The position numbers and the translations under genes are program-made. A DNA stretch of 60,476 nt, taken from Bryobacteraceae bacterium (lineage in GTDB: Bacteria; Acidobacteriota; Terriglobia; Bryobacterales; Bryobacteraceae). The notes beneath the pieces were generated by a model that made no database searches, was not told the origin of the DNA, and saw only the letters and a program-made list of their open reading frames with translations. The stretch spans positions 1 to 60,476 of the forward strand of contig JAWLGN010000001.1 in assembly GCA_041685075.1 (NCBI GenBank), in the 5' to 3' direction. Positions within the stretch are counted from its first letter, which is position 1. The number at the start of each line of letters is the position of its first letter. Positions 6,131-49,808 of the stretch are shown here, in pieces.

Positions 6131-7516
6131 ATGCCTACACCCAGTTCACTTCGGGCCCCGGCGCCGGCTCCGGAGCCCGGCCCAAGCCCAGTCCGCTCGC
6201 GGCCGCTGAAGCCGCCTCCGGAGAAATCCCGAAGCGTATGGTGGTGGGGTTCCGCCATCGTGCTCATCATCATGGCGGCCGTTGTATGGTGGCAGCGCCA
6301 CGCCCTTATGCCCTCGGCCATGAAGGGTCCCGCCGGTCCGGGCTTCCGCACCACCTCCGCCCGCGCCGGGAGCCTGGAAAAAGGCCTGCGAGTGGCCGGC
6401 GTGACCGCCGCCGAGAATTTCGCCGTGCTGCGGGCGCCTCGCCTCCGCGGCCGGCGCACCGGGCGCAGCGCCATGGAGTTCAGTCTCACGATCGAACGCT
6501 TGGCCCCCGCGGGCAAATTTGTCCGGGCCGGCGAAGTAGTGGCGGAGTTCGACCGCCAGTACATGCAGTTGCGGCTGGACGACTACCTGGCCCGTGTGGA
6601 GCAGGAAGGCCGCGACGTTTCGCGGCTGAAGGCCAACCTGGCGGTCAGGCGCGCGGCCCACACCCAGCTTGTGATTCGCGCGCGGGGCGAAATGGAAAAG
6701 GCCGAGTTGGACCTCAAAAAGATCCCCATCCTCTCCGACAACGAGGCCGAACGGTACCGCCTGAACTACGGCGAGGCCGTCGAGAATTACAAGGAGGTGC
6801 GCAGCCGCACTCCGTTCGTGGAGGTCTCCGAGGGTGCCGCCGTACGCCGCGCGGAGCTGAACTACAAGGAGGCCGAACTCGAGTTGGCCCGCGCGCAGCG
6901 GCACGTGGATCAACTCGTAGCCCGCGCTCCCATCGACGGTATGGTGGTGATGCTCACGCTGCGCCGCAGCGGCGAACGAGCGCAGATCCGTGAGGGCGAC
7001 CAGATCGGCTCCGGCCAGCCGTACATGCACATCGTGGACGTGCGGGAGATGGTGATCAACGCCGACGTCAACCAGGTGGACGCCCAGCACGTGAAATTGG
7101 GGATGGAAGCGAGCGTGCGCTTCGACGCCTATCCCGATCTCGAGCTTCCCGCGCGCGTCATTGCAGTGGGCGCTTTCGCCAACCAGACCGGCTGGCGCGG
7201 CAGCTACGTGCGCAACGTCCCCATCCGCCTCAAGTTAGAGCGCACGGACCCGCGCGTAATCCCGGATCTTTCGGTGAGCGCCGACCTGGTGCTTCAGAAA
7301 GCCGAGGACGCGATCATCGTTCCGCGCGAAGCGGTCTTTGGCGACGGCGATGAGCAGTATGCCATGGTTCGCGAAGGTCCCGGCTCCTGGCAGAAGCGGC
7401 CGCTGGAAATTGTGCTGGAGAACAACGTGGAAGTCGCGGTGGCCTCCGGCGTTCAGGCCGGTGATGTTCTGGCCGCTGAATGGCCTGGCGAGAACCCCGA
7501 GGTCCTGACGAACTAA
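6131..7516 (+). CDS. HlyD-family membrane fusion / periplasmic adaptor protein
   Basis: 461 aa. Pro-rich N-terminus, one TM helix (WWWGSAIVLIIMAAVVWW), a long coiled-coil region, a lipoyl-like hairpin (ARAPIDGMVV) and a beta-barrel tail. Confidence 0.8.
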   Translation: MPTPSSLRAPAPAPEPGPSPVRSRPLKPPPEKSRSVWWWGSAIVLIIMAAVVWWQRHALMPSAMKGPAGPGFRTTSARAGSLEKGLRVAGVTAAENFAVLRAPRLRGRRTGRSAMEFSLTIERLAPAGKFVRAGEVVAEFDRQYMQLRLDDYLARVEQEGRDVSRLKANLAVRRAAHTQLVIRARGEMEKAELDLKKIPILSDNEAERYRLNYGEAVENYKEVRSRTPFVEVSEGAAVRRAELNYKEAELELARAQRHVDQLVARAPIDGMVVMLTLRRSGERAQIREGDQIGSGQPYMHIVDVREMVINADVNQVDAQHVKLGMEASVRFDAYPDLELPARVIAVGAFANQTGWRGSYVRNVPIRLKLERTDPRVIPDLSVSADLVLQKAEDAIIVPREAVFGDGDEQYAMVREGPGSWQKRPLEIVLENNVEVAVASGVQAGDVLAAEWPGENPEVLTN

Positions 7517-11434: not shown

Positions 11435-13621
11435 ATGCGACGCCGCACGTTCCTGCTGACGCCCGCGCTGCTGGCCCAATCGCGTGCGGGCGAGGCCGAG
11501 CCGCACTTCCCCGACCGCCTCCACCAGTTCGTCTGGCGCAACTGGGAACTGGCCAACATCGAGCGCATGGCCGCGGTGGCCGGCTGCGCGCCCGCGCGCC
11601 TCCTCGAGATCGGCCGCGCGCTGGGGCTGCCGGAAAAGCCCCGGCTCACCGCCGATCAACTGCGCCGTATCTACATCACGGTGATCCGCCAGAATTGGGC
11701 GCTGCTGCCGAACGGGCAGATTACCGAGCTGCTCGGCTGGACGCCGGAGCAGTTCACCTTCACCCTCAAGGAGGACGATTTCCTGGACGTGAAGCTGGGG
11801 GCCAAGCCGTCCTGCGAGCCGCTGCGCTACGCCGAGCCCACACCCGAGGCCCGCCGCCGCGCCGCTCAGATCCGCTCCACGGTGCGGGAAGCGTTCGGCA
11901 AGGAGTGGAACGAACCCGGGGAATCGCCCTTCGCCTTCGTCGAGCGGATGTCGGCTCCGGGAGCCGTGGCGCCGCCCGCCGAGCCGGCCGGGGTGCGGTG
12001 GGACCTGCGCCACGTCTACTCCTATTTCGCGCTCTACGGCGATCCCCTGGTGGAGCCGGAGATCGATCCCTTCCCGGACGGCTATCTCGAGCGCCTTCGC
12101 GCGGTGGGGATCAACGGCGTGTGGATGCAGGCGGTGCTGCGAACGCTGGCGCCCGCGCCGCAGTTTCCGGAATTCGGCGCCCGCGGCGAGGAGCGCCTGG
12201 CGAACCTGCGGAATCTGGTGGCCCGCGCGGCGCGGCACGGCATGCGGGTCTTTCTCTACATCAACGAGCCCCGCTCCATGCCGCCGGAGTTTTTCGCGCG
12301 GCGTCCCGGGATGCGCGGCGCCGAATACCGCGGCCACTACGCCATGTGCACCAGCATCCCGGAGGTGCGGGAGTGGATTTCCGGCAGCCTGGCGCATGTC
12401 TTCCGCGCAGTGCCGGAGCTGGGCGGGGTCTTCTCCATCACGATGTCGGAAAACTTCACCCACTGCCACTCGCGCCCGCGCGCCGAGACCTGCCCGCGCT
12501 GCTCGCGCCGCGCGAACTGGCAGGTGGTGGGGGAGCTGCTGGAGGCCATCCGCACGGGCGTGCGCGCCTCCAGCCGCACGGCCGAAGTCATCGCCTGGGA
12601 TTGGGGATGGCCCGGCGAGATGGCGCGCCGCGTGATTCCCCGGCTGCCGCGCGATACGCGCTTCCAGAGCGTCAGCGAATGGAGCATCCCGATCGAGCGC
12701 GGCGGTGTGAAGTCCACCGTGGGGGAGTATTCGATTTCGGTGGTGGGGCCGGGCCCGCGCGCCACGGCGCACTGGGAACTGGCGCGCAAGGCCGGAGTCC
12801 GCACCCTGGCGAAGACCCAGTTCAACAACACCTGGGAGATCTCGGCGGTGCCCTACATTCCGGTGGGCTACCTGGTGGCGCGCCATTGCGCCAACCTGCG
12901 GCAGGCCGGGGTGAGCGGGGTGCAGGCCTCCTGGACCCTGGGCGGATATCCGTCGCCCAATCTCGAAATCGCGCGCGAGTTCTATTTCGGGAAGGCGCCC
13001 ACCCCGGAGGACGCCGTGGCCGCGGTGGCGCGGCGGCGCTATGGCGAAGAGGCCGGCCCGCTGGTGGCCGGCGCGTGGAAGATCTTCAGCCGCGCCTTCG
13101 AAATGTACCCCTACGGCATCGCCATCTACACCATTCCGACGCAGCACGGCCCCGCCAACCTGCTGCGCGAGACGCCCTCGGGGGTGAAGGGATCCATGAT
13201 CCTGTTCCCCCAGGACGACTATCGCGGCTGGTGCGGGCATTATCCTCCGGAGGTGGTGCGGGACCAGTTCGCCCGCATGGCCTCGGCCTGGGAGCCGGGG
13301 CTGGCGGTGCTCGGCAAAGCCGCGGCCCTCTCGCCGGCGGCGGCCGAGGAACTGGCGGTCGCCGAAACCTGCTGGATCCATTTCAAAAGCACCGCCAACC
13401 AGCTTGCCTTCTACCTGCTGCGCGACGGAGGCGGTTCGCGCGAGGCCATGCGCGCCATCGTCTGGGACGAGATGGCGCTGGCCCGCCGGCAGTTCTCCAT
13501 CGCCCGGCGGCACTCGGTGATCGCCTTCGAGGCCAGTAACCACTACTACTACCGGCCGCTCGATCTGGCGGAGAAGATCCTCAACTGCCGCCGGCTGCTG
13601 GGGCGGCTGGCGTCGGCTTGA
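11435..13621 (+). CDS. hypothetical exported protein, possibly a TIM-barrel glycosidase-like enzyme
   Basis: 728 aa with protein-like composition, unlike the antisense 768-aa ORF. Tat/Sec-like N-terminus MRRRTFLLTPALLAQS. The central region INGVWMQAV...RHGMRVFLYINEPRSMP...ITMSENFTHC resembles (beta/alpha)8 glycosidase families. Function not established. Confidence 0.6.
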   Translation: MRRRTFLLTPALLAQSRAGEAEPHFPDRLHQFVWRNWELANIERMAAVAGCAPARLLEIGRALGLPEKPRLTADQLRRIYITVIRQNWALLPNGQITELLGWTPEQFTFTLKEDDFLDVKLGAKPSCEPLRYAEPTPEARRRAAQIRSTVREAFGKEWNEPGESPFAFVERMSAPGAVAPPAEPAGVRWDLRHVYSYFALYGDPLVEPEIDPFPDGYLERLRAVGINGVWMQAVLRTLAPAPQFPEFGARGEERLANLRNLVARAARHGMRVFLYINEPRSMPPEFFARRPGMRGAEYRGHYAMCTSIPEVREWISGSLAHVFRAVPELGGVFSITMSENFTHCHSRPRAETCPRCSRRANWQVVGELLEAIRTGVRASSRTAEVIAWDWGWPGEMARRVIPRLPRDTRFQSVSEWSIPIERGGVKSTVGEYSISVVGPGPRATAHWELARKAGVRTLAKTQFNNTWEISAVPYIPVGYLVARHCANLRQAGVSGVQASWTLGGYPSPNLEIAREFYFGKAPTPEDAVAAVARRRYGEEAGPLVAGAWKIFSRAFEMYPYGIAIYTIPTQHGPANLLRETPSGVKGSMILFPQDDYRGWCGHYPPEVVRDQFARMASAWEPGLAVLGKAAALSPAAAEELAVAETCWIHFKSTANQLAFYLLRDGGGSREAMRAIVWDEMALARRQFSIARRHSVIAFEASNHYYYRPLDLAEKILNCRRLLGRLASA

Positions 13622-14747: not shown

Positions 14748-14897
14748 CATCGCCGAATTGAATTTTAACCGCGACCTGAATCCCGTCCCGCCGGCGCTGT
14801 TCTGTGGAGAATTCCAACGCCTCTGTTGAGAAATACAGATCGCACGGAAATCGCACCAGACGTTCAACTTGCACACGCATCCCCGGGAAACACCCGT

Positions 14898-14934
14898 TGA
14901 AATATCCCACACCTCGGCACTGATGGATTTTTCA
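14898..14934 (+). promoter_or_regulatory. candidate enhancer (UAS) inverted repeat for the sigma-54 activator
   Basis: TGAAATATCC (14898-14907) and GGATTTTTCA (14925-14934) match 9/10 as an inverted repeat. The centre lies about 75 nt upstream of the -24 GG. An ATCGCAC direct repeat also occurs at 14839-14845 and 14850-14856 (11-nt period). Confidence 0.3.
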
Positions 14935-14989
14935 GCACTCGCAGGTGCTTGAAAACTCAACAAATAAACTGCCCGAAATCACCACAGTT

Positions 14990-15005
14990 TGGCCCGTTCG
15001 GTGCA
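14990..15005 (+). promoter_or_regulatory. sigma-54 (-24/-12) promoter
   Basis: TGGCCCGTTCGGTGCA versus consensus TGGCACG-N4-TTGCA. The GG (14991-92) and GC (15003-04) have exact consensus spacing. About 29 nt upstream of ATG 15034, in an AT-rich gap. A sigma-54 activator gene is in the same cluster. Confidence 0.55.
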
Positions 15006-15033
15006 CTTATGTACACCGAAAGGAAGCAATACC

Positions 15034-15705
15034 ATGACAGTCGTTCTGGTTTTGGTCACGTTTCTGGTTTTCATCCTCCTGGACTGGGCGCTGAACCGGA
15101 AAAAAGCCGTGCAGACCGCCCCGGCTCCATCCCCCGCCACCGCTTCGCCGGCCATGGCTCCGGCATACGTGGAGGGTTTCCTGGTCCCGGAGGAGATGGC
15201 CTATCACCCTGGCCATGGCTGGGCCCTGCGGGAGCGGCGTAACCTGGTTCGGGTGGGGGTGGACGAATTCGCCGCGGCCCTGATAGGACGCGCCGAAAAG
15301 ATCGAAATCCCCAAGCCCGGGCAGTGGGTGCGGCAGGGTCAAAAGGTCTGGAGTTTCTATCGCGAGGGCGAAAAGACCGAAATGGTCTCCCCTACGGAGG
15401 GCGAGGTGGTGGAGATCAACGCCGATGTGCTGCGCGACCCCTCCCTGCTGCGAACCGATCCTTATGGAAAGGGCTGGCTGGCCACCCTGCACGTGCCGGA
15501 TGAGGAAAACACTGCCCGGAACATGGTTCCAGCGCACTCGGTCCGGAGCTGGATGCGCGAATCTGTAGAAAGACTCTATAGTCTGCAGCCGCGGCTCGCT
15601 GGCGCCGTGGCCGCCGACGGGGGTCGTCCCGCCGATGATCTGCTTGCCGGAATGCCAAACGCGGACTGGAAGAAGACCACTGCTGAATTTTTCCTCACCG
15701 CATAA
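15034..15705 (+). CDS. membrane-anchored glycine-cleavage-H-like (GcvH-fold) protein
   Basis: The ATG at 15034 has an SD (aaggaag). N-terminal TM helix MTVVLVLVTFLVFILLDWAL is followed by NRKK. The GcvH-like core is YHPGHGWA...VRVGVDEFAA...EGEKTEMVSPTEGEVVEINADV...DPYGKGWL. The track ORF starts at 14989. Confidence 0.7.
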   Translation: MTVVLVLVTFLVFILLDWALNRKKAVQTAPAPSPATASPAMAPAYVEGFLVPEEMAYHPGHGWALRERRNLVRVGVDEFAAALIGRAEKIEIPKPGQWVRQGQKVWSFYREGEKTEMVSPTEGEVVEINADVLRDPSLLRTDPYGKGWLATLHVPDEENTARNMVPAHSVRSWMRESVERLYSLQPRLAGAVAADGGRPADDLLAGMPNADWKKTTAEFFLTA

Positions 15706-15760
15706 TTTTTCAACACCCGGGGGATGAAATGCGATATAAACGGGATATGAGGGTCTAGAT

Positions 15761-16507
15761 ATGTCGAAAGCGGTGCTTTACGACAGCACCCTCTGCGTCG
15801 GCTGCAGGGCCTGCGAATCCGCCTGCTCCGAGCGCTGGGGCCTTCCGTACGACGACACCGTGGCGGCCGAAGAGCGTCTCTCTTCGCGCAAGCTCACCAC
15901 TATCACTACTCATGGCGAACGCTACAACCGCCGGCTATGCATGCATTGCGCGGAACCTACCTGTGTATCCGTCTGCCCCGTGGGCGCGTTGCAGAAGACC
16001 GCACTCGGCCCCGTCATCTACGACGCCGATAAGTGCATGGGCTGCCGCTACTGCATGACAGCCTGCCCCTTCGGCGTCCCTTCCTATGAATGGGATAAAC
16101 GGCTCCCCAAGGTCCGGAAGTGCGATATGTGCTACGACCGGCAACTGGAGGCCGCACCCACGCGGTGTTCGGAGAGCTGCCCCACCGAAGCCACCGTCAC
16201 GGGCGACCGCGAGGCCATTGTGGAGTTGGCGCGCAAGCGCATGGCCGATAGTCCCGGCCAGTACTATCCCCGCATCTACGGCCTGAAGGAAGCCGGCGGC
16301 ACCTCGGTCTTCTTCCTGTCGGCCGTGCCCTTCGAGCAGTTGGGGATGAAGACCGGGCTGCCCGGGGAGCCGTTGCCCGCGCTGACCTGGCGGGTGCTCT
16401 CCACCGTGCCGGATGTGGTGACGGTCGGGTCGGTGCTGCTCGGCGGCATCTACTGGATCACCAACCGGCGCGAAGAAGTCGCCAGAAAGGAGGGCCGCCG
16501 GAAATGA
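15761..16507 (+). CDS. 4x[4Fe-4S] ferredoxin-type subunit (HybA/FdnH/NrfC family) with C-terminal TM anchor
   Basis: Four Cys clusters: CVGCRACESAC, CMHCAEPTCVSVCP, CMGCRYCMTACP, CDMC...CSESCP. C-terminal helix VVTVGSVLLGGIYWI. No N-terminal Tat signal. Confidence 0.85.
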   Translation: MSKAVLYDSTLCVGCRACESACSERWGLPYDDTVAAEERLSSRKLTTITTHGERYNRRLCMHCAEPTCVSVCPVGALQKTALGPVIYDADKCMGCRYCMTACPFGVPSYEWDKRLPKVRKCDMCYDRQLEAAPTRCSESCPTEATVTGDREAIVELARKRMADSPGQYYPRIYGLKEAGGTSVFFLSAVPFEQLGMKTGLPGEPLPALTWRVLSTVPDVVTVGSVLLGGIYWITNRREEVARKEGRRK

Positions 16508-17673
16508 ACCGCCTTGCCGCGCGTATCACCCCCTGGCGCGCGATCTTCGCCGCCGTGGCCCTGGCGGGCCTCTATGCCACCTGGGTGCGGATCTACTACG
16601 GCCTGGGCGCCGCCACCAACCTCAGCGACGAGTTTCCCTGGGGCATCTGGATCGGCTTCGACATCCTGTGCGGTGTGGGGCTGGCGGCCGGCGGCTTCAC
16701 CCTGGTGGCCGTGGTCCACATCTTCAACATCGAGCGCTACAAGCCGATCCTGCGGCCGGCCATCCTGACGGCCTTCCTGGGTTACCTGCTGGTGATCCTG
16801 GCGCTGCTGTTCGACCTGGGCCGTCCGGACCGCGTCTGGCACCCGTTGATCCTCTGGAACCCGCGCTCGGTGATGTTCGAGGTGGGCTGGTGCGTCACGC
16901 TCTACACCACCGTGCTGTTTCTGGAGTTCGTCCCGGTGGTCTTCGAGAAGTTCGGCATGCACAAGCCGCTGGGCTGGATGCGGGCGATCTCGGTGCCCCT
17001 CATGATTGCCGGGGTGATTCTCTCCACCCTGCACCAGTCTTCGCTGGGCACCCTGTACCTGATCGTTCCCCATAAACTGTACGCCCTGTGGTACTCGCCC
17101 CTGCTGCCGGTGTTCTTTTATATCTCGGCCATCTGCGCGGGGCTGGCCATGACGATCTTTGAATCCTGGCACTCGAGCCGCGCCTTCGGCCGCGCGCTCG
17201 AATTGCCGCTGCTGGCGAGCATGGGACGCGTGCTGGCGGTACTGCTCTCCGTCTATCTGGCGATGCGCTACCTGGATCTTTCGCGCCGCGGCGCGCTGCC
17301 GCTGCTGCTAGAGAACCGTACCGAGACCTGGCTGTTCGGCCTGGAGATCGCGCTCATGCTGGTGCCCATGGTGCTGCTCTACAGGCGGAGCGTGCGGTGG
17401 CGGCCCGGGGCGCTCTACGGCTGCGCCGTGATGGTGCTGTTCGGCTTCATTGCCAACCGCCTGAACGTTTCCATCACCGGGATGGAGGCCGGCTCCGGCG
17501 TCTCCTACGTGCCCAAGTGGACCGAGGTGGCGGTGACCCTGGCCATCGTGGCCCTGGGGTTCGCCATCTTCCGGGTGATGGCGCAGTACTTCCCGGTATT
17601 TGAAGAGCCGCGCGAGGCGGCGACCGCGGCGGTCGAGGTCGAGCCGGCCGCTGTTCCGGTGGAGGTGAGATAG
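16504..17673 (+). CDS. NrfD/HybB/PsrC-family integral membrane quinone-interacting subunit
   Basis: 389 aa with about 10 TM helices and the family-typical FPWGIWIGFDI segment. ATGA overlap with the FeS gene. Confidence 0.85.
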   Translation: MNRLAARITPWRAIFAAVALAGLYATWVRIYYGLGAATNLSDEFPWGIWIGFDILCGVGLAAGGFTLVAVVHIFNIERYKPILRPAILTAFLGYLLVILALLFDLGRPDRVWHPLILWNPRSVMFEVGWCVTLYTTVLFLEFVPVVFEKFGMHKPLGWMRAISVPLMIAGVILSTLHQSSLGTLYLIVPHKLYALWYSPLLPVFFYISAICAGLAMTIFESWHSSRAFGRALELPLLASMGRVLAVLLSVYLAMRYLDLSRRGALPLLLENRTETWLFGLEIALMLVPMVLLYRRSVRWRPGALYGCAVMVLFGFIANRLNVSITGMEAGSGVSYVPKWTEVAVTLAIVALGFAIFRVMAQYFPVFEEPREAATAAVEVEPAAVPVEVR

Positions 17674-17685
17674 CGCAAGCCATAT

Positions 17686-19329
17686 ATGACGGTTGCGCCA
17701 CAATCCGGTCCCGGTCAAGCCGCGCGGGATCGTGCGCCCGCGGAAAGGCGCCTCCGTCTGGGTCTGGCCGCCAAGCTCGCCATCTGTCTGGTGGCGAGCA
17801 CGGCGGCCTTTTTCGCGCTGTTCGGCTATCTGATCATCCGGGAGCAGCGGGCCCACTCCGAAGAACTGATCCTGCACGAAGCCGAGCGCGTCAGCGACGT
17901 GATCCTCCGCAGCACCCGCTACGAGATGCTGCACAACGACCGCGACGCTCTCTACAACACCATCCGGGAGATCGGCGCCGAGCCGGGCATCCGCAGCATC
18001 CGCATTCTGAATAAAGAAGGGCGCATCACCTACTCGAGCGACGCCGCCGAGGTCGATACCCTGGTAGACCGCCGCATCGAGGCCTGCTACGGCTGCCACG
18101 CGCAGTCGGAGCCGCTCGAGCGGCTGCCCCGGCCCGACCGCGCGCGCATCTACCGCGACGCACAGGGCGAGCGCGTGCTGGGCGTCATCCGCCCCATCGA
18201 GAACCAGCCCGTCTGTTCGAACGCCGCCTGCCACGCGCATCCGCCGGACCGGCGCGTGCTGGGTGTCATCGACGCCAATGTCTCGCTGGCCGGCGTCGAC
18301 CGCCAGATCTCTGAGTTTCAAACTCACCTGGTGTGGGTCGTGGTGGCGGCGGTGCTGCTGATTTCGATCGTCAGCGCGGCCTTCATCTGGGGCTTCGTCT
18401 ACAGGCCCGTAAAGGAATTGATGGACGGCACCCGGCGCGTGGCCGGCGGCGATCTGGACTACCGGCTGCCGGTGCACTCCTCCGATGAGTTGGGCGACCT
18501 GGCCGCCTCCTTCAACAAGATGACCGAGGAGGTGGCCGGCGTGCAGGCCGAGATCGAGGAGCGCGTGCGCATTAAGACCGCCGAGGTCGAGCGCGCCCAC
18601 AAGGCCGTGCTCAACAGCGAGAAGCTGGCCTCCATCGGGAAGCTCGCCGCCACCGTGGCGCACGAGATCAATAACCCGCTGTTCGGCATCCTCACCTACG
18701 CGCGGCTCATCCAGCGCGACGTGGAGCGCAGCGATCTCCCGGACAAGGAAGAGGTGGCCGAGCAACTCCGCACCATCGAGCGTGAAAGCCGCCGTTGCGG
18801 CGACCTGGTGAAGAACCTCTTGACCTTCGCGCGCCAGGCTCCCAGCCACCGCGAGGCCACCAACCCCCGCACCCTGGTGGAACGCGCCATTACGCTGGTG
18901 CGCCACAAGCTGGAGCTGCAGAGCATCGAGCTGGCCGAGAGCTATCCCGACGACGTGCCTCCGGTGATGTGCGACGGCGCCCAGATTCAGCAAGTGGTGC
19001 TGGTGCTGCTGGTGAACGCGGCCGATGCCATGCCGCAGGGCGGCCGCCTGGAGGTGGCCATCGAAATCGATCCCAGCGGCGACTGTGTGTTGATTCGCGT
19101 CCGCGATACCGGCATGGGAATCCCCGCCGAGGTGCTGCCCCAGATCTTCGATCCGTTCTTCACGACCAAGGAGGACCAGCAGCGTACCGGGCTGGGCCTG
19201 GCCGTGGCACGGAGCATCGTCGAGCAGCACGGCGGCGACATCGCCGCGCGCTCCACGCCCGGCGAAGGTACCGAGTTTGTAATCTCCCTGCCGGTGGCGG
19301 TGCTGGCCGCCGCCGGGGTGGTGAAGTGA
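17686..19329 (+). CDS. sensor histidine kinase with periplasmic CXXCH-containing domain, HAMP, HisKA, HATPase_c
   Basis: TM1 (LAICLVASTAAFFALFGYLII), a periplasmic loop of about 180 aa containing CYGCH and CSNAACH, TM2, HAMP, H-box VAHEINNPL, N/G boxes (LLVNAADAM, DTGMGI, GLGLAV). Confidence 0.9.
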   Translation: MTVAPQSGPGQAARDRAPAERRLRLGLAAKLAICLVASTAAFFALFGYLIIREQRAHSEELILHEAERVSDVILRSTRYEMLHNDRDALYNTIREIGAEPGIRSIRILNKEGRITYSSDAAEVDTLVDRRIEACYGCHAQSEPLERLPRPDRARIYRDAQGERVLGVIRPIENQPVCSNAACHAHPPDRRVLGVIDANVSLAGVDRQISEFQTHLVWVVVAAVLLISIVSAAFIWGFVYRPVKELMDGTRRVAGGDLDYRLPVHSSDELGDLAASFNKMTEEVAGVQAEIEERVRIKTAEVERAHKAVLNSEKLASIGKLAATVAHEINNPLFGILTYARLIQRDVERSDLPDKEEVAEQLRTIERESRRCGDLVKNLLTFARQAPSHREATNPRTLVERAITLVRHKLELQSIELAESYPDDVPPVMCDGAQIQQVVLVLLVNAADAMPQGGRLEVAIEIDPSGDCVLIRVRDTGMGIPAEVLPQIFDPFFTTKEDQQRTGLGLAVARSIVEQHGGDIAARSTPGEGTEFVISLPVAVLAAAGVVK

Positions 19330-19378
19330 ATGGAATGCGGCGCCCGGTGCGCCGCCGTGTGTGAGAAGGAGGTTTGAG

Positions 19379-20737
19379 GTGAGTGCAAATCCGCAGGCAG
19401 CCGTAAGGAGCAGGGGACGGATCCTGATCGTCGACGACGAGTTGGTGGTCCGCGATTCGCTGGGCAAGTGGTTCGCCAGCGAGGGCTACCAGGCCATGCC
19501 CGTCGCCGGCGCCCGCGAGGCCCTGGAGGCCATCCAGCAGCTCGAATACGATATTGCCCTGATCGATATCAAGATGCCCGGCATGGATGGGATGGAACTG
19601 CAGAGCCGGCTGCGCGAGGCCGACCCCGACCTCACCGTCATCATCATGACCGGCTACGCCAGCGTGGAGACGGCCGTGCAGGCGCTCAAGCGCGGCGCCT
19701 ACGACTACATCACCAAGCCCGTGGACCCGGACGAGCTGTCGCACCTGGTGGGCAAGGCGCTCGAACACCGCCGCGCCCGCCGCGAGGTGGCCCGGCTGCG
19801 CGAGAACCTGCAGGAGATCTTCCCCTCCACCGAACTCATCGGCAAGAGCGCCGCCATGAAGAAAGTGCAGGAGCTGATCGAGATGGTGGCCCCCACCGAC
19901 GCCACCGTGCTCATCACCGGGGAGAGCGGCACCGGGAAGGAAGTGGTGGCGCGCGCCATTCACGCCGCCAGCCCCCGCCGCTACATGCCCATGGTGACCA
20001 TCCATTGCGGCGCCCTTACGGAAACGCTGCTGGAAAGCGAGTTGTTCGGCCACGAGCGCGGCGCTTTCACCGGCGCGCAGTACCGCAAGAAGGGCAAGTT
20101 CGAGGTGGCCGACGGCGGCACCGTCTTCCTGGACGAGATCAGCGACATCAGCCTGAAGACCCAGAGCGACCTGCTGCGGGTGCTCCAGGAGAAGGAAATC
20201 GTGCGGGTAGGCGGCAACCAGCCCATCAAGGTGGACTTCCGCTGCATCGCGGCCACCAACAAGAACCTGGAGGGGCTGGTGAAGGGCGGCACCTTCCGCC
20301 CGGACCTCTACTACCGGCTGCACGTCTTCTGCATCGACCTGCCGCCGCTGCGCGACCGCCGCGAAGATATCCCGCTGCTGGTGAACCACTTCCTCAACAA
20401 GTTCTGCATGGCCACCAGCCGGCCCATCCCGCAGGTGAGCCAGGACGCCATGGAGCTGCTCATGAGCCACGAGTGGCCCGGCAACGTTCGGGAGCTGGAG
20501 AACGCCGTGGAGCGCGCCCTGGTGGTGGGCCGCGGCCAGGAAATCAAGGCTGCCGATTTCTCGTTCCGCTTCCAGGCCGAACCGATGCCCGCCGGCCGCA
20601 CCCTCAGCGACGTCGAGCGCGCCCACATCGAACGCATCCTGCGGGAGACCGACAACAACCTGTCGAAGGCGGCGCGCATTCTCGACATCGACCGGACCAC
20701 GTTGTATAACAAACTGCGGCGCTACGGTCTGCGGTGA
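19379..20737 (+). CDS. sigma-54-dependent response regulator (NtrC family: REC + AAA+ + Fis-type HTH)
   Basis: REC domain (ILIVDDE...DIKMPGMDG), Walker A GESGTGKE, sigma-54 contact loop ERGAFTGA, C-terminal HTH (NLSKAARILDIDRTTLYNKL). A GTG at 19379 with AAGGAGG 6 nt upstream is the likely start. The track ORF starts at 19361. Confidence 0.9.
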   Translation: MSANPQAAVRSRGRILIVDDELVVRDSLGKWFASEGYQAMPVAGAREALEAIQQLEYDIALIDIKMPGMDGMELQSRLREADPDLTVIIMTGYASVETAVQALKRGAYDYITKPVDPDELSHLVGKALEHRRARREVARLRENLQEIFPSTELIGKSAAMKKVQELIEMVAPTDATVLITGESGTGKEVVARAIHAASPRRYMPMVTIHCGALTETLLESELFGHERGAFTGAQYRKKGKFEVADGGTVFLDEISDISLKTQSDLLRVLQEKEIVRVGGNQPIKVDFRCIAATNKNLEGLVKGGTFRPDLYYRLHVFCIDLPPLRDRREDIPLLVNHFLNKFCMATSRPIPQVSQDAMELLMSHEWPGNVRELENAVERALVVGRGQEIKAADFSFRFQAEPMPAGRTLSDVERAHIERILRETDNNLSKAARILDIDRTTLYNKLRRYGLR

Positions 20738-21303
20738 GGGCCATCCGGCTGGCGACAGTGGGGCCGGCCGGCGGCCACGCCCCTCCGGCGATGGTGGACG
20801 CGCTCGAGCGCGAGCTGCGCCGCATCTTCCGCCTCCCCTGCGAGCGCCACCCAGGTTCAATCGACGTGGAGGCGGCGTGGAACCCCGGACGCGGCCAGTA
20901 CTACTCCACGGAAATTCTCAGCCGGCTGGTCGAAGCCGCCCCCGCCGACGTGCGGATGCTGGGGGTGACCGGGCTGGACCTCTACGTCCCGGTGTTGACC
21001 TTCGTTTTCGGCGAAGCGCAACTGGAGGGCAACTGCGCGCTGGTATCGTTTCACCGCCTGCGCGAGGAGTTCTACGGACTGCCGCCGAACGAGAGGCTGC
21101 TGGCGGAAAGGCTCGTCAAGGAAGCGGTTCACGAACTGGGCCACACCTTCGGGCTGCGCCACTGCGACAACTGGCGCTGCGTGATGGCATCGAGCCACGG
21201 CGTCGAACTGCTGGATGTAAAAGGCGCCGAGTTCTGCCCCGCCTGCGCGCGGGTGGTGAGGGGGGAGGGCGTCGGCCCGCGCGGGGCTTTCCACTCCAAG
21301 TGA
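20734..21303 (+). CDS. archaemetzincin-family zinc metalloprotease
   Basis: Signature HELGHTFGLRHCDNWRCVM...CPAC (HExxHxxGx3Cx4CxM...CxxC). GTGA start/stop overlap with the response regulator gene. Confidence 0.85.
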   Translation: MRAIRLATVGPAGGHAPPAMVDALERELRRIFRLPCERHPGSIDVEAAWNPGRGQYYSTEILSRLVEAAPADVRMLGVTGLDLYVPVLTFVFGEAQLEGNCALVSFHRLREEFYGLPPNERLLAERLVKEAVHELGHTFGLRHCDNWRCVMASSHGVELLDVKGAEFCPACARVVRGEGVGPRGAFHSK

Positions 21304-25390: not shown

Positions 25391-28300
25391 TCAGGCCGCG
25401 CTGAGGATCGGCTGCGCGATCAACACGTCGGCCGGATCGATTTGCAGTTCGTCCGGGAAGCCGAGCGGCGGGAATGGCGCGCCGTCCCGCAGTACCCGGA
25501 CTTCCAGCCTCGCCGCCGGGCGCACAGCGCCTAAGGGCGAGTGTAGGGCGCGGGATACTTCCAGAAAGACCATCAACCCCAGGTTGCGCAGGAGTTGCGG
25601 TGCATCGGGAGCATCGAAGAGGCTGGTCAGGCGCTTGTTGAAGGTCTCCACGATGCGGGCACCAAAGCGGTCGAGCGCTTCGATGGCCTGCTCGTCGTTG
25701 CGAGACTGCCGGAAGCGCGCGATGCTAAGGCCGGCGTCGACCGCGCCTTTTATAACTTCAGCCTCCACGAACAACAGGCTGTCGCGCAACAGCATACGAC
25801 CCACGCCGGTGCTGCCCGCGAGCTTGACGTCGCTGAACTCGCCCGGAGAGTAGAAACCGGCGTGCGATTTCAGCCCAGGCGTGTTAGCGAGCAGCTCATG
25901 CGCTTCGTCCATGCGCAGCACGAGAGCGTTGTCGGTGAGGCGGTTGCCGATCATGAGGGTGAGGTCGCCTTCGGGACGCTCGTCGAGGAAGTTCCAGTAG
26001 TAGGACTTTCCGGTGTCGAACCGAACCTGGCCGTTTTCCACCTGCACGGAGTTAGCGGGCGGAAGCGAGCTGTAGAGCATCACCGCGCAAGCGGCCGCGT
26101 TCTGTCCCTTGTACCGATCGAGGTCCTGAAAGTAGACGTACGGCACCAGCCGCCGCAAGGCCTGCTGGATGTTTTTCGAGAGAGCGCGCCAGGCGGGGTC
26201 CTTCGAGTCGGCGGGCGCGTTCCACCATCCGGCCAGCACGCGGCCGGGCATGCTCACGTCGAGCGAGAGCAGGGCGTTCCCGATCAGGCCGGTGCCGTTG
26301 TTTTCCACGGCATCGGCGAGTTTATCCAGGTCCCACACCCACTCCGCCAGGGTTGCCTTCTCATCGCCGAACTCTCCCGGCAGATAGGTCTCGACGATGG
26401 GGCGCAACTGGCGCTCCAGTTGCACCGTGCGCAACGCCTTCCGTGCGATGTGGAAGCTGTAGGATATGGCCATCCCGTCCTCGAGTTCCTCCCGGTCCGC
26501 GAAGCGGTGCACGCCCTGCCGAGCGGCGGCGGGAATGTCCATCATGAGCGCCAGGCGGCCCGCCCAGCGACCCCGGCGGAAGATCTCGTTGGAGCTGTCC
26601 AGGGTGATGCGGCTGCCCTCGGCCCGCACCTCGAACGCGGCCAGCGATTGGGTGATGCTGCCGGTGTCGCTGCGGAAGTAGGGAAGGTTGATCTCCACCG
26701 AGGACCGGCGGGTGATCCCGTGGGTGAGGCGGCCTTCGTGCAGGGTGACGCCGTCGATGGGGCGGGTGAAGAGACCGTCGCTGGCGAAGTCGCCCGCGAT
26801 GGCGTTGCGGAGTACCGGTCCGAGGTCGGGGTTGCGGCCAAAATCGAAACTTACGTCCACCAGCGCCTCCTTGGGCGTGGCGCTCTGGTAGTTGTAGAGG
26901 AAGCTGGCCTCGTAGCGCCGGCTGCCGGCTTCGCGAATGGCTGCGTAAATGTCGTCCGCCTTCGCCAGAACGGCGCGCAAGGCGGCGCGAAGTTCCTCGA
27001 GCGAACTGCGGTCGATCACGCGCCCCAGAAACGCGCTAAGCCGCTCCTTCAGGCGCTTATCGAGTTCGTCGAAATCCGTTTCCAGGATTTGCCGGATACC
27101 GAACCGCTCGACGGCGTAGTCGACCAGCTCATTCAGCACCTTGCCATCCAGGATGTCGAGAGCGTTTTGCGCGGCGCCCCGGATGCGCTCGATATCGGCG
27201 ATGCGATCGATGGCGGCCAGCGCGTTCATGGGGGTTACGGCTTCCAGGAAGCCGCGGGCCGGGCCCGGAACGGCTTCGGCCCTCGCAAGCACGCCTCGGA
27301 TGATGGTCCGGATGGCTTCGGCATCGCCTGCCGCCAGAGCCCGCAGGGTGGGTTCGAGTTCTGCCAGTTCCTCCCGGCGGCCGATCAGGGACCACAGCAG
27401 GGTGGCCGCGCGGTGCCCGAGTTGCGGACTGGTCCATCGGTCGAGAAACTCCAGGATTTTCGCCTGCGCCCTGCCGTAGGCCTCCTGCGGGCTGCTCCGG
27501 AACGTCTCGGCGAACTGCTTCTTGGCCAGTTCGACGAGGAAATCCCCGGCCAGCGTGTTCAGGGGCGTCTGCGGATCGGTCCAGCGGCGGATTTCGCCCA
27601 GGTACTCGACAATCTGCGCCCCGTGAACCCCGAGTATGGCGGATAGGAATTCCTCCATGCTCTCCGGCAGCAGGCCGTCTGTCCTGGGCTCGAGGCCGGC
27701 AGCGGCGTGCAAGGCGAAGTTCCAGCCCTTCTTGGCGAGCTTGTGCAGCCGCAGGCGAACGACCCGGGTATTGGGGTCGAGGGACTCGCGGGAGACCATC
27801 AGGGCGTACTTCCCGGCGGCTTCGAATCCCAGAGTGGCCTCCACGGCGGCCTGGATGCGCAGCCCCAGGACGCCGGAAAGCTCGTTCAGCCGCGTGGCGC
27901 GAACCCAACTGTAGTCCAGCCCCACGGTGGCGCCCAGGCTGGCCTTGAAGCCGCCATCCACCTCGGCCACGATCCAGGTTCCGGCAGGGATATCCGCCGG
28001 GCCGCCAATCCGGGAGGGCAAAGTCCACGCGTCGATCAGGCCCTGCACGCCGTCCCTGGCGTTGGGATCAGTCTCAAAACGCCGGATCGTGATGAACTTG
28101 CCGGCGCTGGATCCCTCCATGCCGAACTTCACGGCCACGTGCCCGAGCGCCAGGGCGCCGGCGGCTGCGCCGTTAACATCATAGTGCCATCGGAGAGCCA
28201 GGTAACGGTCCGTGCCGGAGTCGGGGAAGGCGATGGCGTTGTTGACGATGCCGTCTTCGCTCCCGACATCTTCCACCAGGTCGGCGGAGGTGGAGTACAC

Positions 28301-28567: not shown

Positions 28568-28612
28568 AAATACTCTCCTGGTAGGAGAGACCATATCCCG
28601 GAGACAGGCAGT

Positions 28613-38945: not shown

Positions 38946-38979
38946 AGACGGTGGCCATCGGCTTGCACCGGACAGGCCG

Positions 38980-40391: not shown

Positions 40392-40559
40392 AAATGGCGC
40401 TCCTTATACTCCGGACGGAGTAACCGGGCGGCTGCCCGGTCCCGTCCCTGGAGTTGTATTGCATTGCGCGGGCCACAGCGAAAATGCGCACGCCGAAGCG
40501 CCCGTCAAACGGATAGAATTGAGGTTTACCGTCCACCTCAACCAAGGAGTGTAGAAGCG

Positions 40560-49711: not shown

Positions 49712-49808
49712 ACCCCAGGAGGGCCACGCCAGCACGGCATTGCCCTTCGCACACAAACCTACAATTGCAACAGGCGGGCCACTCCCGCCACTCTCGGTAC
49801 CGCCGCGG

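What the first reader, a model, noticed from the sequence alone, without database searches (positions are those of the whole stretch)
14990..20737. Sigma-54-driven membrane redox module without a catalytic subunit, wired to its own heme-motif kinase and NtrC-type activator
Behind a near-consensus -24/-12 element lie five tightly spaced co-directional genes (gaps of 55 nt or less, or start/stop overlap): a TM-anchored GcvH-fold protein, an FdnH/HybA-type 4x[4Fe-4S] protein with a C-terminal anchor, an NrfD/HybB-type membrane subunit, a histidine kinase and a sigma-54 activator. FeS plus NrfD pairs (Psr, Nrf, Hyb, Dms, Ttr, Fdn families) normally serve a molybdopterin, NiFe or multiheme catalytic subunit. 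None is encoded here, and the only candidate partner is the GcvH-fold protein. The FeS protein has no Tat signal. The GcvH-like protein has NRKK right after its TM helix. Together these suggest a cytoplasm-facing assembly. The cluster's own kinase/activator genes, together with the upstream sigma-54 promoter, suggest an autoregulated redox- or quinone-linked sensory or electron-transfer unit. I cannot assign it to a described complex.
Basis: partly seen in the sequence, partly recalled or inferred. Interest (0 to 1): 0.8.

Follow-up and report, generated by a model that had tools for sequence, protein, structure and literature searches.

The report
Sigma-54-controlled Hmc-like quinone redox module
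This soil acidobacterium carries a six-gene operon for a small membrane electron-transfer unit (iron-sulfur protein, quinone-binding membrane protein and an odd membrane-anchored "H-protein-like" subunit) switched on by its own heme-containing sensor; the same uncharacterised gene set recurs in at least three to four other bacterial phyla.

Summary
The unit is a six-gene operon. A conserved Peptidase_M54 gene (20734-21303) overlaps the activator's stop codon, and the first gene starts at ATG 15034.

The -24/-12 element is unremarkable as a motif, with 7 loose matches in the window against 3.2 expected. It is, however, conserved at a fixed distance upstream of the GcvH-like gene in about 80 acidobacterial species. 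It sits behind 2-3 GTTG-N7-CAAC enhancer repeats that also recur in other phyla.

The FeS and NrfD proteins fall in the HmcB/HybA and HmcC/HybB clades, below the equivalog cut-offs. The kinase has a Cache-type periplasmic domain with two conserved heme-c motifs.

Outside Acidobacteriota the cluster reads GcvH-like 1, FeS with a Tat signal, NrfD, GcvH-like 2, kinase, activator, M54. GcvH-like 2 has an HmcD-type N-terminal helix. Some loci add cytochrome c3 or a fused tetraheme domain. The relatives' module therefore faces the periplasm and the GcvH-fold domain faces the cytoplasm.

All acidobacterial FeS orthologues do lack the Tat signal, and this is unexplained.

The GcvH-fold domain has no conserved lipoyl lysine. 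No literature found describes the system as a whole.

Verdict: a new variant of a known kind, of moderately high interest.

The parts
14804..14818 (+). Candidate enhancer (UAS) site GTGGAGAATTCCAAC, of the form GTTG-N7-CAAC with 1 mismatch
   Evidence: The motif averages 1.8-2.0 sites per 300 nt upstream of GcvH-like genes, against 0.16 upstream of other genes. It is also present upstream of the first GcvH-like gene in L084, L085, L086, L088 and L089.
14825..14839 (+). Weaker second UAS-like repeat GTTGAGAAATACAGA (2 mismatches)
   Evidence: It aligns with a conserved GT[CT]G-N7-[CT]AAC block in the upstream alignment of 15 Bryobacterales loci.
14896..14910 (+). Candidate UAS site GTTGAAATATCCCAC (1 mismatch), about 88 bp upstream of the -24 element
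14949..14969 (+). Conserved A/T-rich block TTGAAAACTCAACAAATAAAC between the UAS sites and the promoter; possibly a DNA-bending (IHF-like) site
   Evidence: It is conserved as TTGAAA-CACAACAGATAAAGAGG across Bryobacterales loci. The proposed function is inferred only.
14990..15005 (+). Sigma-54-type -24/-12 element TGGCCCGTTCGGTGCA, 44 nt upstream of the ATG
   Evidence: A GG-N10-GC site scoring at least 8 of 11 lies 41-93 nt upstream of the GcvH-like ATG in 51 of 80 loci, against 55 of 978 other upstream regions. It aligns column for column.
15034..15705 (+). Membrane-anchored GcvH-fold protein (223 aa): N-terminal TM helix, Pro/Ala linker, GcvH barrel, and a helical C-terminal extension with an invariant D195-G196-G197 loop
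   Evidence: - Pfam GCV_H at 65.9 bits.
- AlphaFold pLDDT 86.9; Foldseek TM-score 0.82-0.90 to GcvH structures.
- Family alignments.
- No conserved lipoyl Lys.
15761..16507 (+). Tail-anchored 4x[4Fe-4S] ferredoxin of the HmcB/HybA clade, without a Tat signal
16504..17673 (+). NrfD-family 10-TM quinone-interacting subunit of the HmcC/HybB clade
17686..19329 (+). Sensor histidine kinase: TM helix, periplasmic single-Cache/PDC domain with CXXCH (CYGCH) and CX4CH (CSNAACH), TM helix, HAMP, HisKA, HATPase
   Evidence: - Domain assignments.
- Both heme motifs are conserved in 46 of 47 orthologues, including other phyla.
- The PF21563 match is weak.
19361..20737 (+). NtrC-type response regulator and sigma-54 enhancer-binding protein (REC, AAA+ with GAFTGA, HTH_8)
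20734..21303 (+). Cytoplasmic Peptidase_M54 (archaemetzincin-type) gene that overlaps the activator's stop codon; part of the conserved cluster
   Evidence: 86.8 bits. Conserved after the activator gene.

Best explanation
This is the reduced, acidobacterial form of a widespread but uncharacterised gene cluster. The cluster encodes an Hmc/Hyb-type quinone-linked electron-transfer module under the control of its own sigma-54 two-component system.

**Regulation**
1. The kinase reads periplasmic redox state through two c-type hemes on a Cache-type domain. This step is inferred from conserved motifs.
2. The kinase phosphorylates the NtrC-type activator.
3. The activator binds 2-3 GTTG-N7-CAAC repeats. 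This step is inferred from phylogenetic footprinting.
4. The bound activator opens the sigma-54 promoter in front of the GcvH-like gene.
5. In this genome the transcript runs on through FeS, NrfD, kinase, activator and the M54 peptidase, so the system also induces itself.

**The module**
- The tail-anchored 4x[4Fe-4S] protein and the NrfD subunit shuttle electrons between periplasmic carriers and the menaquinone pool. HybA-HybB, HmcB-HmcC and QrcC-QrcD work the same way.
- No catalytic subunit is needed in cis. In relatives the input is a cytochrome c3 or a tetraheme domain fused to a GcvH-like protein.
- The GcvH-fold protein is a non-lipoylated accessory subunit. Its TM helix sits with NrfD, and in sister copies this helix is HmcD-like. 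Its barrel and invariant DGG loop lie on the cytoplasmic face. Its role is unknown and is probably structural or regulatory rather than redox.

**The acidobacterial difference**
- The FeS subunit has lost its Tat signal.
- The most likely reading is that it is still periplasmic and is exported by hitch-hiking on an unlinked Tat substrate. This is not shown.
For: **Gene content and families**
-.

**Conservation of the gene set**
- The six-gene order holds across Bryobacterales.
- In Terriglobales the FeS-NrfD-kinase-activator-M54 block is adjacent to, and divergent from, the GcvH-like gene.
- The same gene set occurs in a Melioribacteraceae MAG, a Planctomycetota MAG, an NCBI assembly not named in the tool output, and unnamed metagenome contigs. 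These versions carry a second GcvH-like gene whose N-terminus hits Pfam DVU_0533.
- DVU_0533 is the fourth gene of the D. vulgaris hmc operon, i.e. HmcD, judging from the flanking-gene numbering.

**Orientation in relatives**
- All non-acidobacterial FeS orthologues have Tat signals.
- Cytochrome c3 genes occur in the cluster.
- P0243 is a Sec-signal tetraheme domain, then an HmcD-like TM helix, then a GcvH-like domain.

**Regulation**
- The sigma-54 element is conserved.
- The UAS repeats are enriched about 11-fold. Two or more sites occur in 40 of 78 upstream regions against 17 of 958 controls. They are shared across phyla.
- Heme motifs are conserved in 46 of 47 kinases. The sensor has a Cache fold.

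**GcvH-like protein**
- It has the GcvH fold.
- It has no conserved lipoyl Lys.

**Topology**

**Literature**
- Tat-less tail-anchored ferredoxin-NrfD pairs that hitch-hike on a Tat substrate: 10.1101/2023.11.02.564894.
- 'NrfCD' pairs without a catalytic subunit, read as quinol:cytochrome modules: PMC3534657.
Against: - No experiment exists. Electron flow, the quinone site, heme attachment, phosphotransfer and sigma-54 dependence are all inferred.
- No cytochrome or Tat-bearing partner lies in this 60-kb window or next to any of the 80 acidobacterial loci. Both the periplasmic electron donor and the export route of the Tat-less FeS protein are therefore unknown here.
- The NrfD charge bias is weaker in Acidobacteriota (about 16 vs 10) than in Tat-positive relatives (about 20 vs 7).
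- In about 29 acidobacterial species the GcvH-like gene, with its promoter and UAS, sits alone with no FeS/NrfD within 9 kb. The GcvH-like protein may therefore not be an obligate subunit of the FeS-NrfD pair.
- Scores to HmcB/C and HybA/B are below NCBIfam cut-offs.
Confidence: 0.5

Rival explanations
1. Quinone-pool sensor. FeS-NrfD is not a bulk electron-transfer enzyme. It is the input device of the kinase, equilibrating the kinase's periplasmic hemes with the quinone pool. The real regulated output is the GcvH-fold protein.
For: - In Terriglobales, FeS-NrfD is co-transcribed with kinase-activator-M54 from a region with no sigma-54 site. The sigma-54 promoter and UAS sit only in front of the divergent GcvH-like gene.
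- In about 29 species the GcvH-like gene keeps the promoter and a triple UAS array while unlinked from everything else.
- The kinase hemes are conserved.
Against: - In Ignavibacteriota-type loci, G1-FeS-NrfD-G2 forms the sigma-54 operon. A hairpin followed by a T-run separates it from kinase-activator-M54. There, FeS-NrfD is output rather than sensor.
- Four [4Fe-4S] clusters and a full NrfD subunit are heavy machinery for a sensor.
- Extra cytochromes in the cluster suggest electron throughput.
Confidence: 0.2
2. Beta/gamma subunits of an unlinked enzyme. The Tat-less FeS protein is the hitch-hiking small subunit of a Tat-exported catalytic protein encoded elsewhere in the genome, such as a hydrogenase or a molybdoenzyme. 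On this reading a catalytic subunit exists but is not in the window.
For: - Loss of the Tat signal in all acidobacterial orthologues, while the C-tail anchor and its inside-positive tail are retained.
- Precedents are FdnH with FdnG, and the Tat-less ferredoxin-NrfD pair next to a Tat-bearing FeFe hydrogenase.
Against: - No candidate partner is adjacent in any of about 50 linked acidobacterial loci.
- Relatives with their own Tat signal also lack a catalytic gene.
- The rest of the genome could not be examined.
Confidence: 0.2
3. The whole assembly faces the cytoplasm, and the GcvH-fold protein is the substrate or carrier partner of the FeS protein.
For: - The FeS protein has no Tat signal.
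- The GcvH-fold domain is cytoplasmic.
- The NrfD positive-inside bias is weaker in Acidobacteriota.
- A cytoplasm-facing NrfD-family complex (SoeABC) is listed among known families. That SoeABC faces the cytoplasm is from my own knowledge.
- One fusion joins GcvH-like domains to an FAD oxidase and an HdrD-like CCG protein.
Against: - Orthologues in other phyla are Tat-exported.
- An 18-residue tail carrying +7/-3 charges after the FeS TM helix would have to cross the membrane.
- NrfD still shows an N-in bias. Its periplasmic loop NLS(D/Q)EFPWG is conserved between Tat-positive and Tat-negative clades.
- The GcvH-fold domain has no conserved Lys or Cys to carry a cofactor.
Confidence: 0.1

Closest known systems
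Hmc complex (HmcABCDEF) of Desulfovibrio vulgaris
   Same: - The best NCBIfam models for the FeS and NrfD proteins are HmcB and HmcC.
- The FeS protein is a tail-anchored ferredoxin paired with an NrfD-type subunit.
- In sister clusters the second GcvH-like protein starts with an HmcD-type helix (Pfam DVU_0533).
   Different: - There is no HmcA cytochrome, no HmcE cytochrome b and no HmcF CCG protein.
- Scores are below the equivalog cut-offs (247 vs 420; 319 vs 550).
- The window's FeS protein has no Tat signal.
- A GcvH-fold domain is attached to the small TM subunit.
- Regulation is by a sigma-54 two-component system rather than Rrf1/Rrf2.
HybA-HybB electron-transfer pair of E. coli hydrogenase 2
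   Same: - These are the second-best models (HybA 9e-57, HybB 1e-85).
- The FeS protein has the same four-cluster, C-tail-anchored architecture.
- The membrane subunit is a cofactor-less 10-TM quinone subunit.
   Different: - No hydrogenase genes are nearby.
- Scores are below cut-offs (193 vs 263; 288 vs 450).
- HybA has its own Tat signal, whereas the window's protein has none.
Stand-alone tail-anchored ferredoxin + NrfD/HybB 'quinol oxidase' modules (Palmer-lab survey, 10.1101/2023.11.02.564894) and the 'NrfCD' pair of Melioribacter roseus (PMC3534657)
   Same: - These are FeS + NrfD pairs without a catalytic subunit.
- They have been read as quinol:periplasmic-cytochrome modules.
- One described variant also lacks a signal peptide.
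   Different: - Those modules sit beside c-type cytochromes or an FeFe hydrogenase.
- Neither paper's retrieved text mentions GcvH-fold subunits, a di-heme kinase, a sigma-54 activator or an M54 peptidase.
- Orthology of Mros1571/1572 to this cluster was not tested.
Glycine-cleavage H protein, and lipoate-binding GcvH-like carriers such as LbpA of sHdr systems (the LbpA comparison is from my own knowledge)
   Same: - The fold is the same, with TM-score 0.82-0.90, rmsd about 1.9 A and about 25% identity.
- The N-terminal H-x-W motif is retained.
   Different: - The protein is membrane-anchored.
- It has a 55-residue C-terminal extension with an invariant DGG loop.
- The hairpin lysine is not conserved.
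- Its score is far below the GcvH equivalog cut-off (61.5 vs 115.9).
Periplasmic heme-c PAS/Cache sensor domains of Geobacter chemoreceptors (Pfam Mcp40H-20_sensor)
   Same: - It is a periplasmic Cache/PAS-like sensor with c-type heme-binding motifs.
- There is a weak PF21563 match, and some orthologues reach the cut-off.
   Different: - There are two motifs (CXXCH and CX4CH).
- The window's protein scores 17 bits against a cut-off of 27.
- The output is a histidine kinase feeding a sigma-54 activator, not a chemoreceptor.

Membership tests
NrfD family (Pfam PF03916) | Score above the Pfam gathering threshold; polytopic cofactor-less membrane subunit | tested here: met
   86.0 bits against a cut-off of 25.8. 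Ten predicted TM helices with N-in charge bias.
HmcC / HybB equivalogs (NCBIfam NF045714 / NF008133) | Score at or above the curated equivalog cut-off | tested here: not met
   319 against 550 for HmcC, and 288 against 450 for HybB. The protein falls in the same clade but is not an orthologue by NCBI's criterion.
HmcB / HybA equivalogs (NF045715 / NF008134) | Score at or above the cut-off | tested here: not met
   247 against 420, and 192.6 against 263. The alignment starts at model positions 36-40, so the signal-peptide region is missing.
Four-cluster CISM-type ferredoxin subunit | Four Cys motifs for 4x[4Fe-4S] | tested here: met
   There are 16 Cys: C12/15/18/22, C60/63/68/72, C92/95/98/102 and C121/124/136/140, read from the translation. 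Fer4_11 scores 71.4 bits. FdnH 1kqf_B matches at 4.6e-26.
Tat substrates | N-terminal twin-arginine signal (S/T-R-R-x-F-L-K) | tested here: not met
   - The window's FeS protein starts MSKAVLYDSTLCVGC.
- In 50 acidobacterial loci the in-frame upstream stretch (0-68 aa to the nearest stop) carries no twin-arginine motif, and every gene starts at the same conserved M-x-K/R-x-I/L-L-Y/F-D-S/A-T motif.
- Relatives L084-L089 carry MDRR(G/N/A)F(I/M/L)K.
Hmc complex | HmcA multiheme cytochrome, HmcE cytochrome b and HmcF CCG protein encoded with HmcBCD | tested here: not met
   None of these occurs in the 60-kb window or in the 80 acidobacterial loci.
Hmc complex | HmcD-type small TM subunit (Pfam PF28260, DVU_0533) | not testable with these tools
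   - PF28260 is absent from the local Pfam copy.
- Precomputed hits list it for the second GcvH-like protein of relatives.
- It is not listed for the window's family.
Hydrogenase 2 (Hyb) | NiFe large and small subunit genes adjacent | tested here: not met
Glycine cleavage H protein | GcvH fold and Pfam domain | tested here: met
   65.9 bits against a cut-off of 22.2. Foldseek E-value 1.8e-12 with TM-score up to 0.90.
Glycine cleavage H protein | Strictly conserved lipoyl-lysine at the hairpin tip; equivalog score | tested here: not met
   - Lys is at shifted positions, or absent, in about 15% of acidobacterial and sister-family members.
- TIGR00527 scores 61.5 against 115.85.
Sigma-54 promoter with bacterial enhancer-binding protein | GG at -24 and GC at -12 with correct spacing, conserved upstream of the target; upstream activator sites; EBP with AAA+ GAFTGA loop and an HTH | tested here: met
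   - The site is at 14990-15005.
- It is conserved in 51 of 80 loci against 5.6% background.
- GAFTGA is present in the translation.
- Actual sigma-54 dependence is not testable here.
Heme-c periplasmic sensor domains (PF21563-like) | Pfam score above cut-off; CXXCH motifs | tested here: inconclusive
   - 17.3 bits against a cut-off of 27 for the window; orthologue P0411 scores 28.0.
- CXXCH and CX4CH are conserved in 46 of 47 kinases.
- The fold is single Cache/PDC.
- Covalent heme attachment is not testable.

The most novel reading that the evidence does not exclude
The conserved set is GcvH-fold TM proteins, FeS, NrfD, a di-heme kinase, a sigma-54 activator and an M54 peptidase. On the most novel reading this set is a new kind of transmembrane redox-coupling or signalling device.
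- The cofactor-less NrfD subunit would relay the periplasmic or quinone redox state by conformational change to the cytoplasmic GcvH-fold domains.
- The invariant DGG loop of those domains, also found on small TMADGG peptides in relatives, would be read or cleaved by the co-conserved M54 metallopeptidase.
- The GcvH fold would then be repurposed as a signalling module rather than a lipoyl carrier. REC-GcvH-like fusions fit this reading.
Probability: 0.15. Interest if true: 0.85.

Novelty: new variant of a known kind. Interest (0 to 1): 0.6.

Why it matters
NrfD-type subunits are suspected ion-translocating modules whose cytoplasmic partners are mostly unknown, and the small Hmc subunit HmcD has no assigned role.

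This cluster ties an HmcBC-like pair to cytoplasmic GcvH-fold domains, a dedicated heme-based redox sensor and a sigma-54 activator with a recognisable binding motif. It occurs in more than 500 species-level genomes, which makes it a tractable and widespread system:
- The regulatory motif gives an immediate handle for defining the regulon.
- The Tat-less acidobacterial variant poses a clean question about how a tail-anchored FeS protein reaches its side of the membrane.

Acidobacteriota are dominant soil bacteria whose anaerobic and micro-oxic electron-transport options are poorly known.

Tried and rejected
**Hypotheses tested and rejected**
- Lipoylation of the GcvH-like protein. The hairpin Lys is not conserved.
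- An upstream extension or a small upstream ORF supplying a Tat signal. The in-frame upstream stretches hold no twin-arginine motif, and the longer GcvH-FeS gaps in nine loci hold no such ORF.
- A catalytic subunit nearby. Pfam scans of essentially all credible ORFs in the window found none.

**Searches that gave nothing**
- PDB sequence searches for the NrfD subunit and the kinase sensor returned no hits.
- Rfam on the conserved leader upstream of FeS in Terriglobales loci returned no hits.
- Literature searches found no description of the system. I combined NrfD with GcvH, glycine cleavage and sigma-54, and archaemetzincin with sigma-54. I also checked the D. vulgaris sigma-54 regulome and a cross-phylum sigma-54 regulon survey.

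**Technical failures**
- The first genome scan, with a 41-sequence alignment, failed for lack of a conserved stretch. It was repeated with 11 sequences.
- My first promoter pattern had the wrong spacing and was corrected.
- The sigma-70 and terminator scan of the operon was uninformative.
- PF28260 could not be run locally.

**Not done**
- AlphaFold-Multimer of the subunits was not possible with the tools.

Full report
**1. What is in the sequence**

The region holds six tightly packed co-directional genes, not five:
- a GcvH-like protein, 15034-15705;
- a four-cluster ferredoxin, 15761-16507;
- an NrfD-family membrane protein, 16504-17673;
- a histidine kinase, 17686-19329;
- a REC/AAA+/HTH_8 sigma-54 activator, 19361-20737;
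- a Peptidase_M54 gene, 20734-21303, which overlaps the activator's stop codon.

The mechanical ORF for the first gene opens at 14989. All homologues start at the ATG at 15034, which follows a GGAAG ribosome-binding site.

The closest homologues are from Bryobacteraceae MAGs at 77-88% identity. The window is therefore from Acidobacteriota, order Bryobacterales.

Pfam scans of essentially every credible ORF in the 60-kb window found only housekeeping and unrelated genes. There is no molybdopterin enzyme, no hydrogenase and no multiheme cytochrome.

**2. The proteins**

*FeS protein*
- It has 16 cysteines in four [4Fe-4S] motifs and a C-terminal TM helix.
- Its best curated models are HmcB (247 bits) and HybA (193 bits), both below the equivalog cut-offs. 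Both alignments start at about model position 36-40, so the signal peptide is missing.

*NrfD protein*
- Its best models are HmcC (319 bits) and HybB (288 bits), again below cut-off.
- It has 10 predicted TM helices.

*GcvH-like protein*
- It has an N-terminal TM helix, a Pro/Ala linker, and a barrel that AlphaFold models with pLDDT 87.
- Foldseek matches the barrel to GcvH crystal structures with TM-score 0.82-0.90.
- A helical C-terminal extension of about 55 residues has no structural match.
- Residues invariant across a divergent family are H58, G60, H61, W63 and a D195-G196-G197 loop. The loop has lower model confidence.
- The hairpin lysine that carries lipoate in true H proteins is shifted or absent in about 15% of members. 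There are no conserved cysteines. The protein is therefore not a lipoyl or thiol carrier.

*Kinase*
- Its periplasmic domain models as a single Cache/PDC fold similar to WalK, DctB and CitA.
- It carries CXXCH and CX4CH motifs, conserved in 46 of 47 orthologues including those from other phyla.
- It has a weak, partly sub-threshold match to the Mcp40H-20 sensor family.

**3. Regulation**

The element TGGCCCGTTCGGTGCA (14990-15005) is not significant as a motif within the window. TGGC-N8-TGCA occurs 7 times against 3.2 expected.

The comparative evidence is strong.
- In 80 acidobacterial species-level loci, a GG-N10-GC site matching at least 8 of 11 consensus positions lies 41-93 nt upstream of the GcvH-like ATG in 51 cases. 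The figure for other genes' upstream regions is 55 of 978.
- The site aligns column for column among Bryobacterales.
- The same alignment shows a conserved A/T-rich block and two to three inverted repeats of the form GTTG-N7-CAAC.
- These repeats average 1.8-2.0 per 300 nt upstream of GcvH-like genes, against 0.16 elsewhere. Two or more sites occur in 40 of 78 regions against 17 of 958.
- They also occur upstream of the first GcvH-like gene in loci from a Melioribacteraceae MAG, a Planctomycetota MAG and unnamed assemblies and metagenome contigs.

Together this is the anatomy of an enhancer-dependent sigma-54 promoter with a dedicated activator. Actual sigma-54 dependence remains an inference.

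**4. Gene-neighbourhood survey**

The GcvH-like family is large. There were 4469 hits at E no greater than 1e-3 among 50%-identity representatives. There were more than 533 confirmed loci among GTDB species genomes.

Acidobacterial loci fall into three arrangements:
1. **Bryobacterales, as here.** GcvH-like, FeS, NrfD, kinase, activator and M54 are co-directional.
2. **Terriglobales, including Ca. Sulfotelmatobacter.** The block FeS-NrfD-kinase-activator-M54 is transcribed divergently from the GcvH-like gene. Unrelated genes follow the GcvH-like gene.
3. **About 29 species, e.g. Korobacteraceae.** The GcvH-like gene stands alone, with no FeS or NrfD within 9 kb. It still has the sigma-54 site and a neat triple UAS array.

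The GcvH-like gene is therefore the constant target of the regulatory motif. The M54 gene always follows the activator.

**5. Relatives in other phyla**

A second homologue search and contig look-ups show a fuller version: GcvH-like 1, FeS, NrfD, GcvH-like 2, kinase, activator, M54.
- GcvH-like 2 begins with a TM segment that hits Pfam DVU_0533.
- From the gene numbering in the Palmer-lab preprint (hmc flanked by DVU_0538 and DVU_0528, with rrf1 and rrf2), DVU_0533 is the fourth hmc gene, HmcD.
- One locus also has a free 49-aa DVU_0533 peptide in front of a second FeS-NrfD-multiheme set.
- Every non-acidobacterial FeS orthologue examined has a textbook twin-arginine signal, MDRR(G/N/A)F(I/M/L)K.
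- Some clusters add a cytochrome c3 gene.
- In Planctomycetota, GcvH-like 2 is fused to an N-terminal Sec-signal tetraheme cytochrome ahead of the HmcD-like helix.
- Other fusions are REC with GcvH-like, and three GcvH-like domains joined to an FAD oxidase and an HdrD-like CCG protein.
- In the Ignavibacteriota-type loci a hairpin with a T-run separates GcvH2 from the kinase gene. There G1-FeS-NrfD-G2 is the sigma-54-driven output operon.

These data fix the topology of the relatives' module:
- cytochrome and FeS domains face the periplasm;
- NrfD and the small helices sit in the membrane;
- the GcvH-fold domains face the cytoplasm.

**6. The acidobacterial peculiarity**

All 50 acidobacterial FeS orthologues examined start at M-(S/P/A)-K-A-(I/L)-L-Y-D-S-T. 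None has room or sequence for a signal peptide. No small Tat-signal ORF occurs in the longer intergenic gaps. These loci have also lost the second GcvH-like gene.

The evidence on orientation points mostly one way.
- The FeS tail after the TM helix is conserved and strongly positive (WITNRR.EV..EG.., about +6 to +8 against -3). This is more positive than in Tat-positive relatives.
- NrfD keeps an N-in charge bias, though a weaker one (about 16:10 against about 20:7).
- By the positive-inside rule the FeS domain should still be periplasmic.

The literature precedent for this state is hitch-hiking on a Tat-bearing partner. Examples are FdnH with FdnG, and a Tat-less ferredoxin-NrfD pair beside an FeFe hydrogenase. 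No such partner is linked here.

I regard the orientation as unresolved, leaning periplasmic. That is the weakest part of the interpretation.

**7. Most likely mechanism**

1. A periplasmic redox signal is read by the di-heme Cache domain of the kinase.
2. The activator is phosphorylated, binds the GTTG-N7-CAAC repeats and opens the sigma-54 promoter.
3. In this genome the whole six-gene operon is induced, including its own regulators.
4. The FeS-NrfD pair connects periplasmic electron carriers to the menaquinone pool, in the manner of HybAB, HmcBC and QrcCD.

Such pairs without a catalytic subunit have been noted before. One example is the 'NrfCD' pair of Melioribacter roseus, interpreted as a quinol:cytochrome module. 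Its orthology to this cluster was not tested.

The GcvH-fold protein is most simply an accessory subunit on the cytoplasmic face. Its function, and that of the M54 peptidase, is unknown.

Shown here:
- gene content and protein families;
- conservation of the cluster across phyla;
- conserved promoter and UAS motifs;
- presence or absence of Tat signals;
- the GcvH and Cache folds.

Inferred:
- every functional step.

**8. Rivals**

- A quinone-pool sensor model. FeS-NrfD would feed the kinase and the GcvH-like protein would be the output. Arrangements 2 and 3 favour it. The Ignavibacteriota operon structure argues against it.
- An unlinked Tat-exported catalytic partner. This would explain the lost signal peptide.

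**9. Novelty**

The parts are known families, and an FeS-NrfD pair without a catalytic subunit is a known kind. The following are not described in any paper I could find:
- the conserved association with GcvH-fold, HmcD-related membrane proteins, a di-heme Cache kinase, a sigma-54 activator with a defined motif and an M54 peptidase;
- the Tat-less, single-GcvH acidobacterial form.

The literature search covers open-access papers and bioRxiv only.

I classify the finding as a new variant of a known kind, with interest 0.6.

Noticed in passing
L054-L083 (e.g. L079 8380-8640, minus strand), upstream of the FeS gene in Terriglobales loci: A leader of about 200 nt is conserved. It contains TTGAC..GTCAC-N8-GTGA-N6-GTCACGG and a block CTGTCTGAAGCTGCTGAATTTCGCGACAGCCTCCGATCTGATGAGGTAAGCAG with stem potential. 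It has no sigma-54 site and no Rfam match.
   Followed up: partly
L086 8673-8939 and 9937-10152; L087 5292-5522: Small single-TM proteins (71-88 aa) ending in [LF]TMADGG lie next to GcvH-like genes. The same DGG motif is invariant in the C-terminal extension of all GcvH-like proteins. This suggests a shared docking or cleavage motif.
   Followed up: partly
L085 about 6717-6815; L088, in the GcvH1-FeS gap: In L085 the GcvH1-FeS gap holds a roughly 30-aa single-TM mini-ORF resembling the N-terminal helix of GcvH-like 1 (translated). In L088 a similar mini-ORF was read by eye from the gap sequence. The one translation attempt was in the wrong frame, so it is unconfirmed.
   Followed up: no
window 40460-40475 (-), 38952-38967 (+), 49766-49781 (-): These are further TGGC-N8-TGCA sites. 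The one at 40460 lies about 70 nt upstream of 39663-40391 (-), a protein with weak ActD (alternative complex III) and YflT matches.
   Followed up: no
L090 4028-7437: In one relative the cluster includes methylene-tetrahydrofolate reductase (MTHFR), a DUF5981 protein, a small ferredoxin and cytochrome c3, between the GcvH-like genes and the M54/activator genes. This hints at different electron inputs in different lineages.
   Followed up: no
L087 10996-14004: DsrE-like, TusA, NarI-type cytochrome b and CCG (HdrD/HmcF-like) genes lie downstream of the GcvH-FeS-NrfD-GcvH set. A second set, HmcD-peptide, FeS, NrfD and multiheme cytochrome, lies upstream.
   Followed up: no
window 11435-13621 (+) and 25391-28594 (-): Two large ORFs (728 aa and 1067 aa) have no Pfam match.
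   Followed up: no
L086 7740-8669; L087 5600-6433; L090 3186-4001: In these relatives the first GcvH-like protein lacks a TM helix. Instead it carries an N-terminal Cys-rich domain with repeated C-x-C/C-P motifs, possibly metal- or cluster-binding.
   Followed up: no
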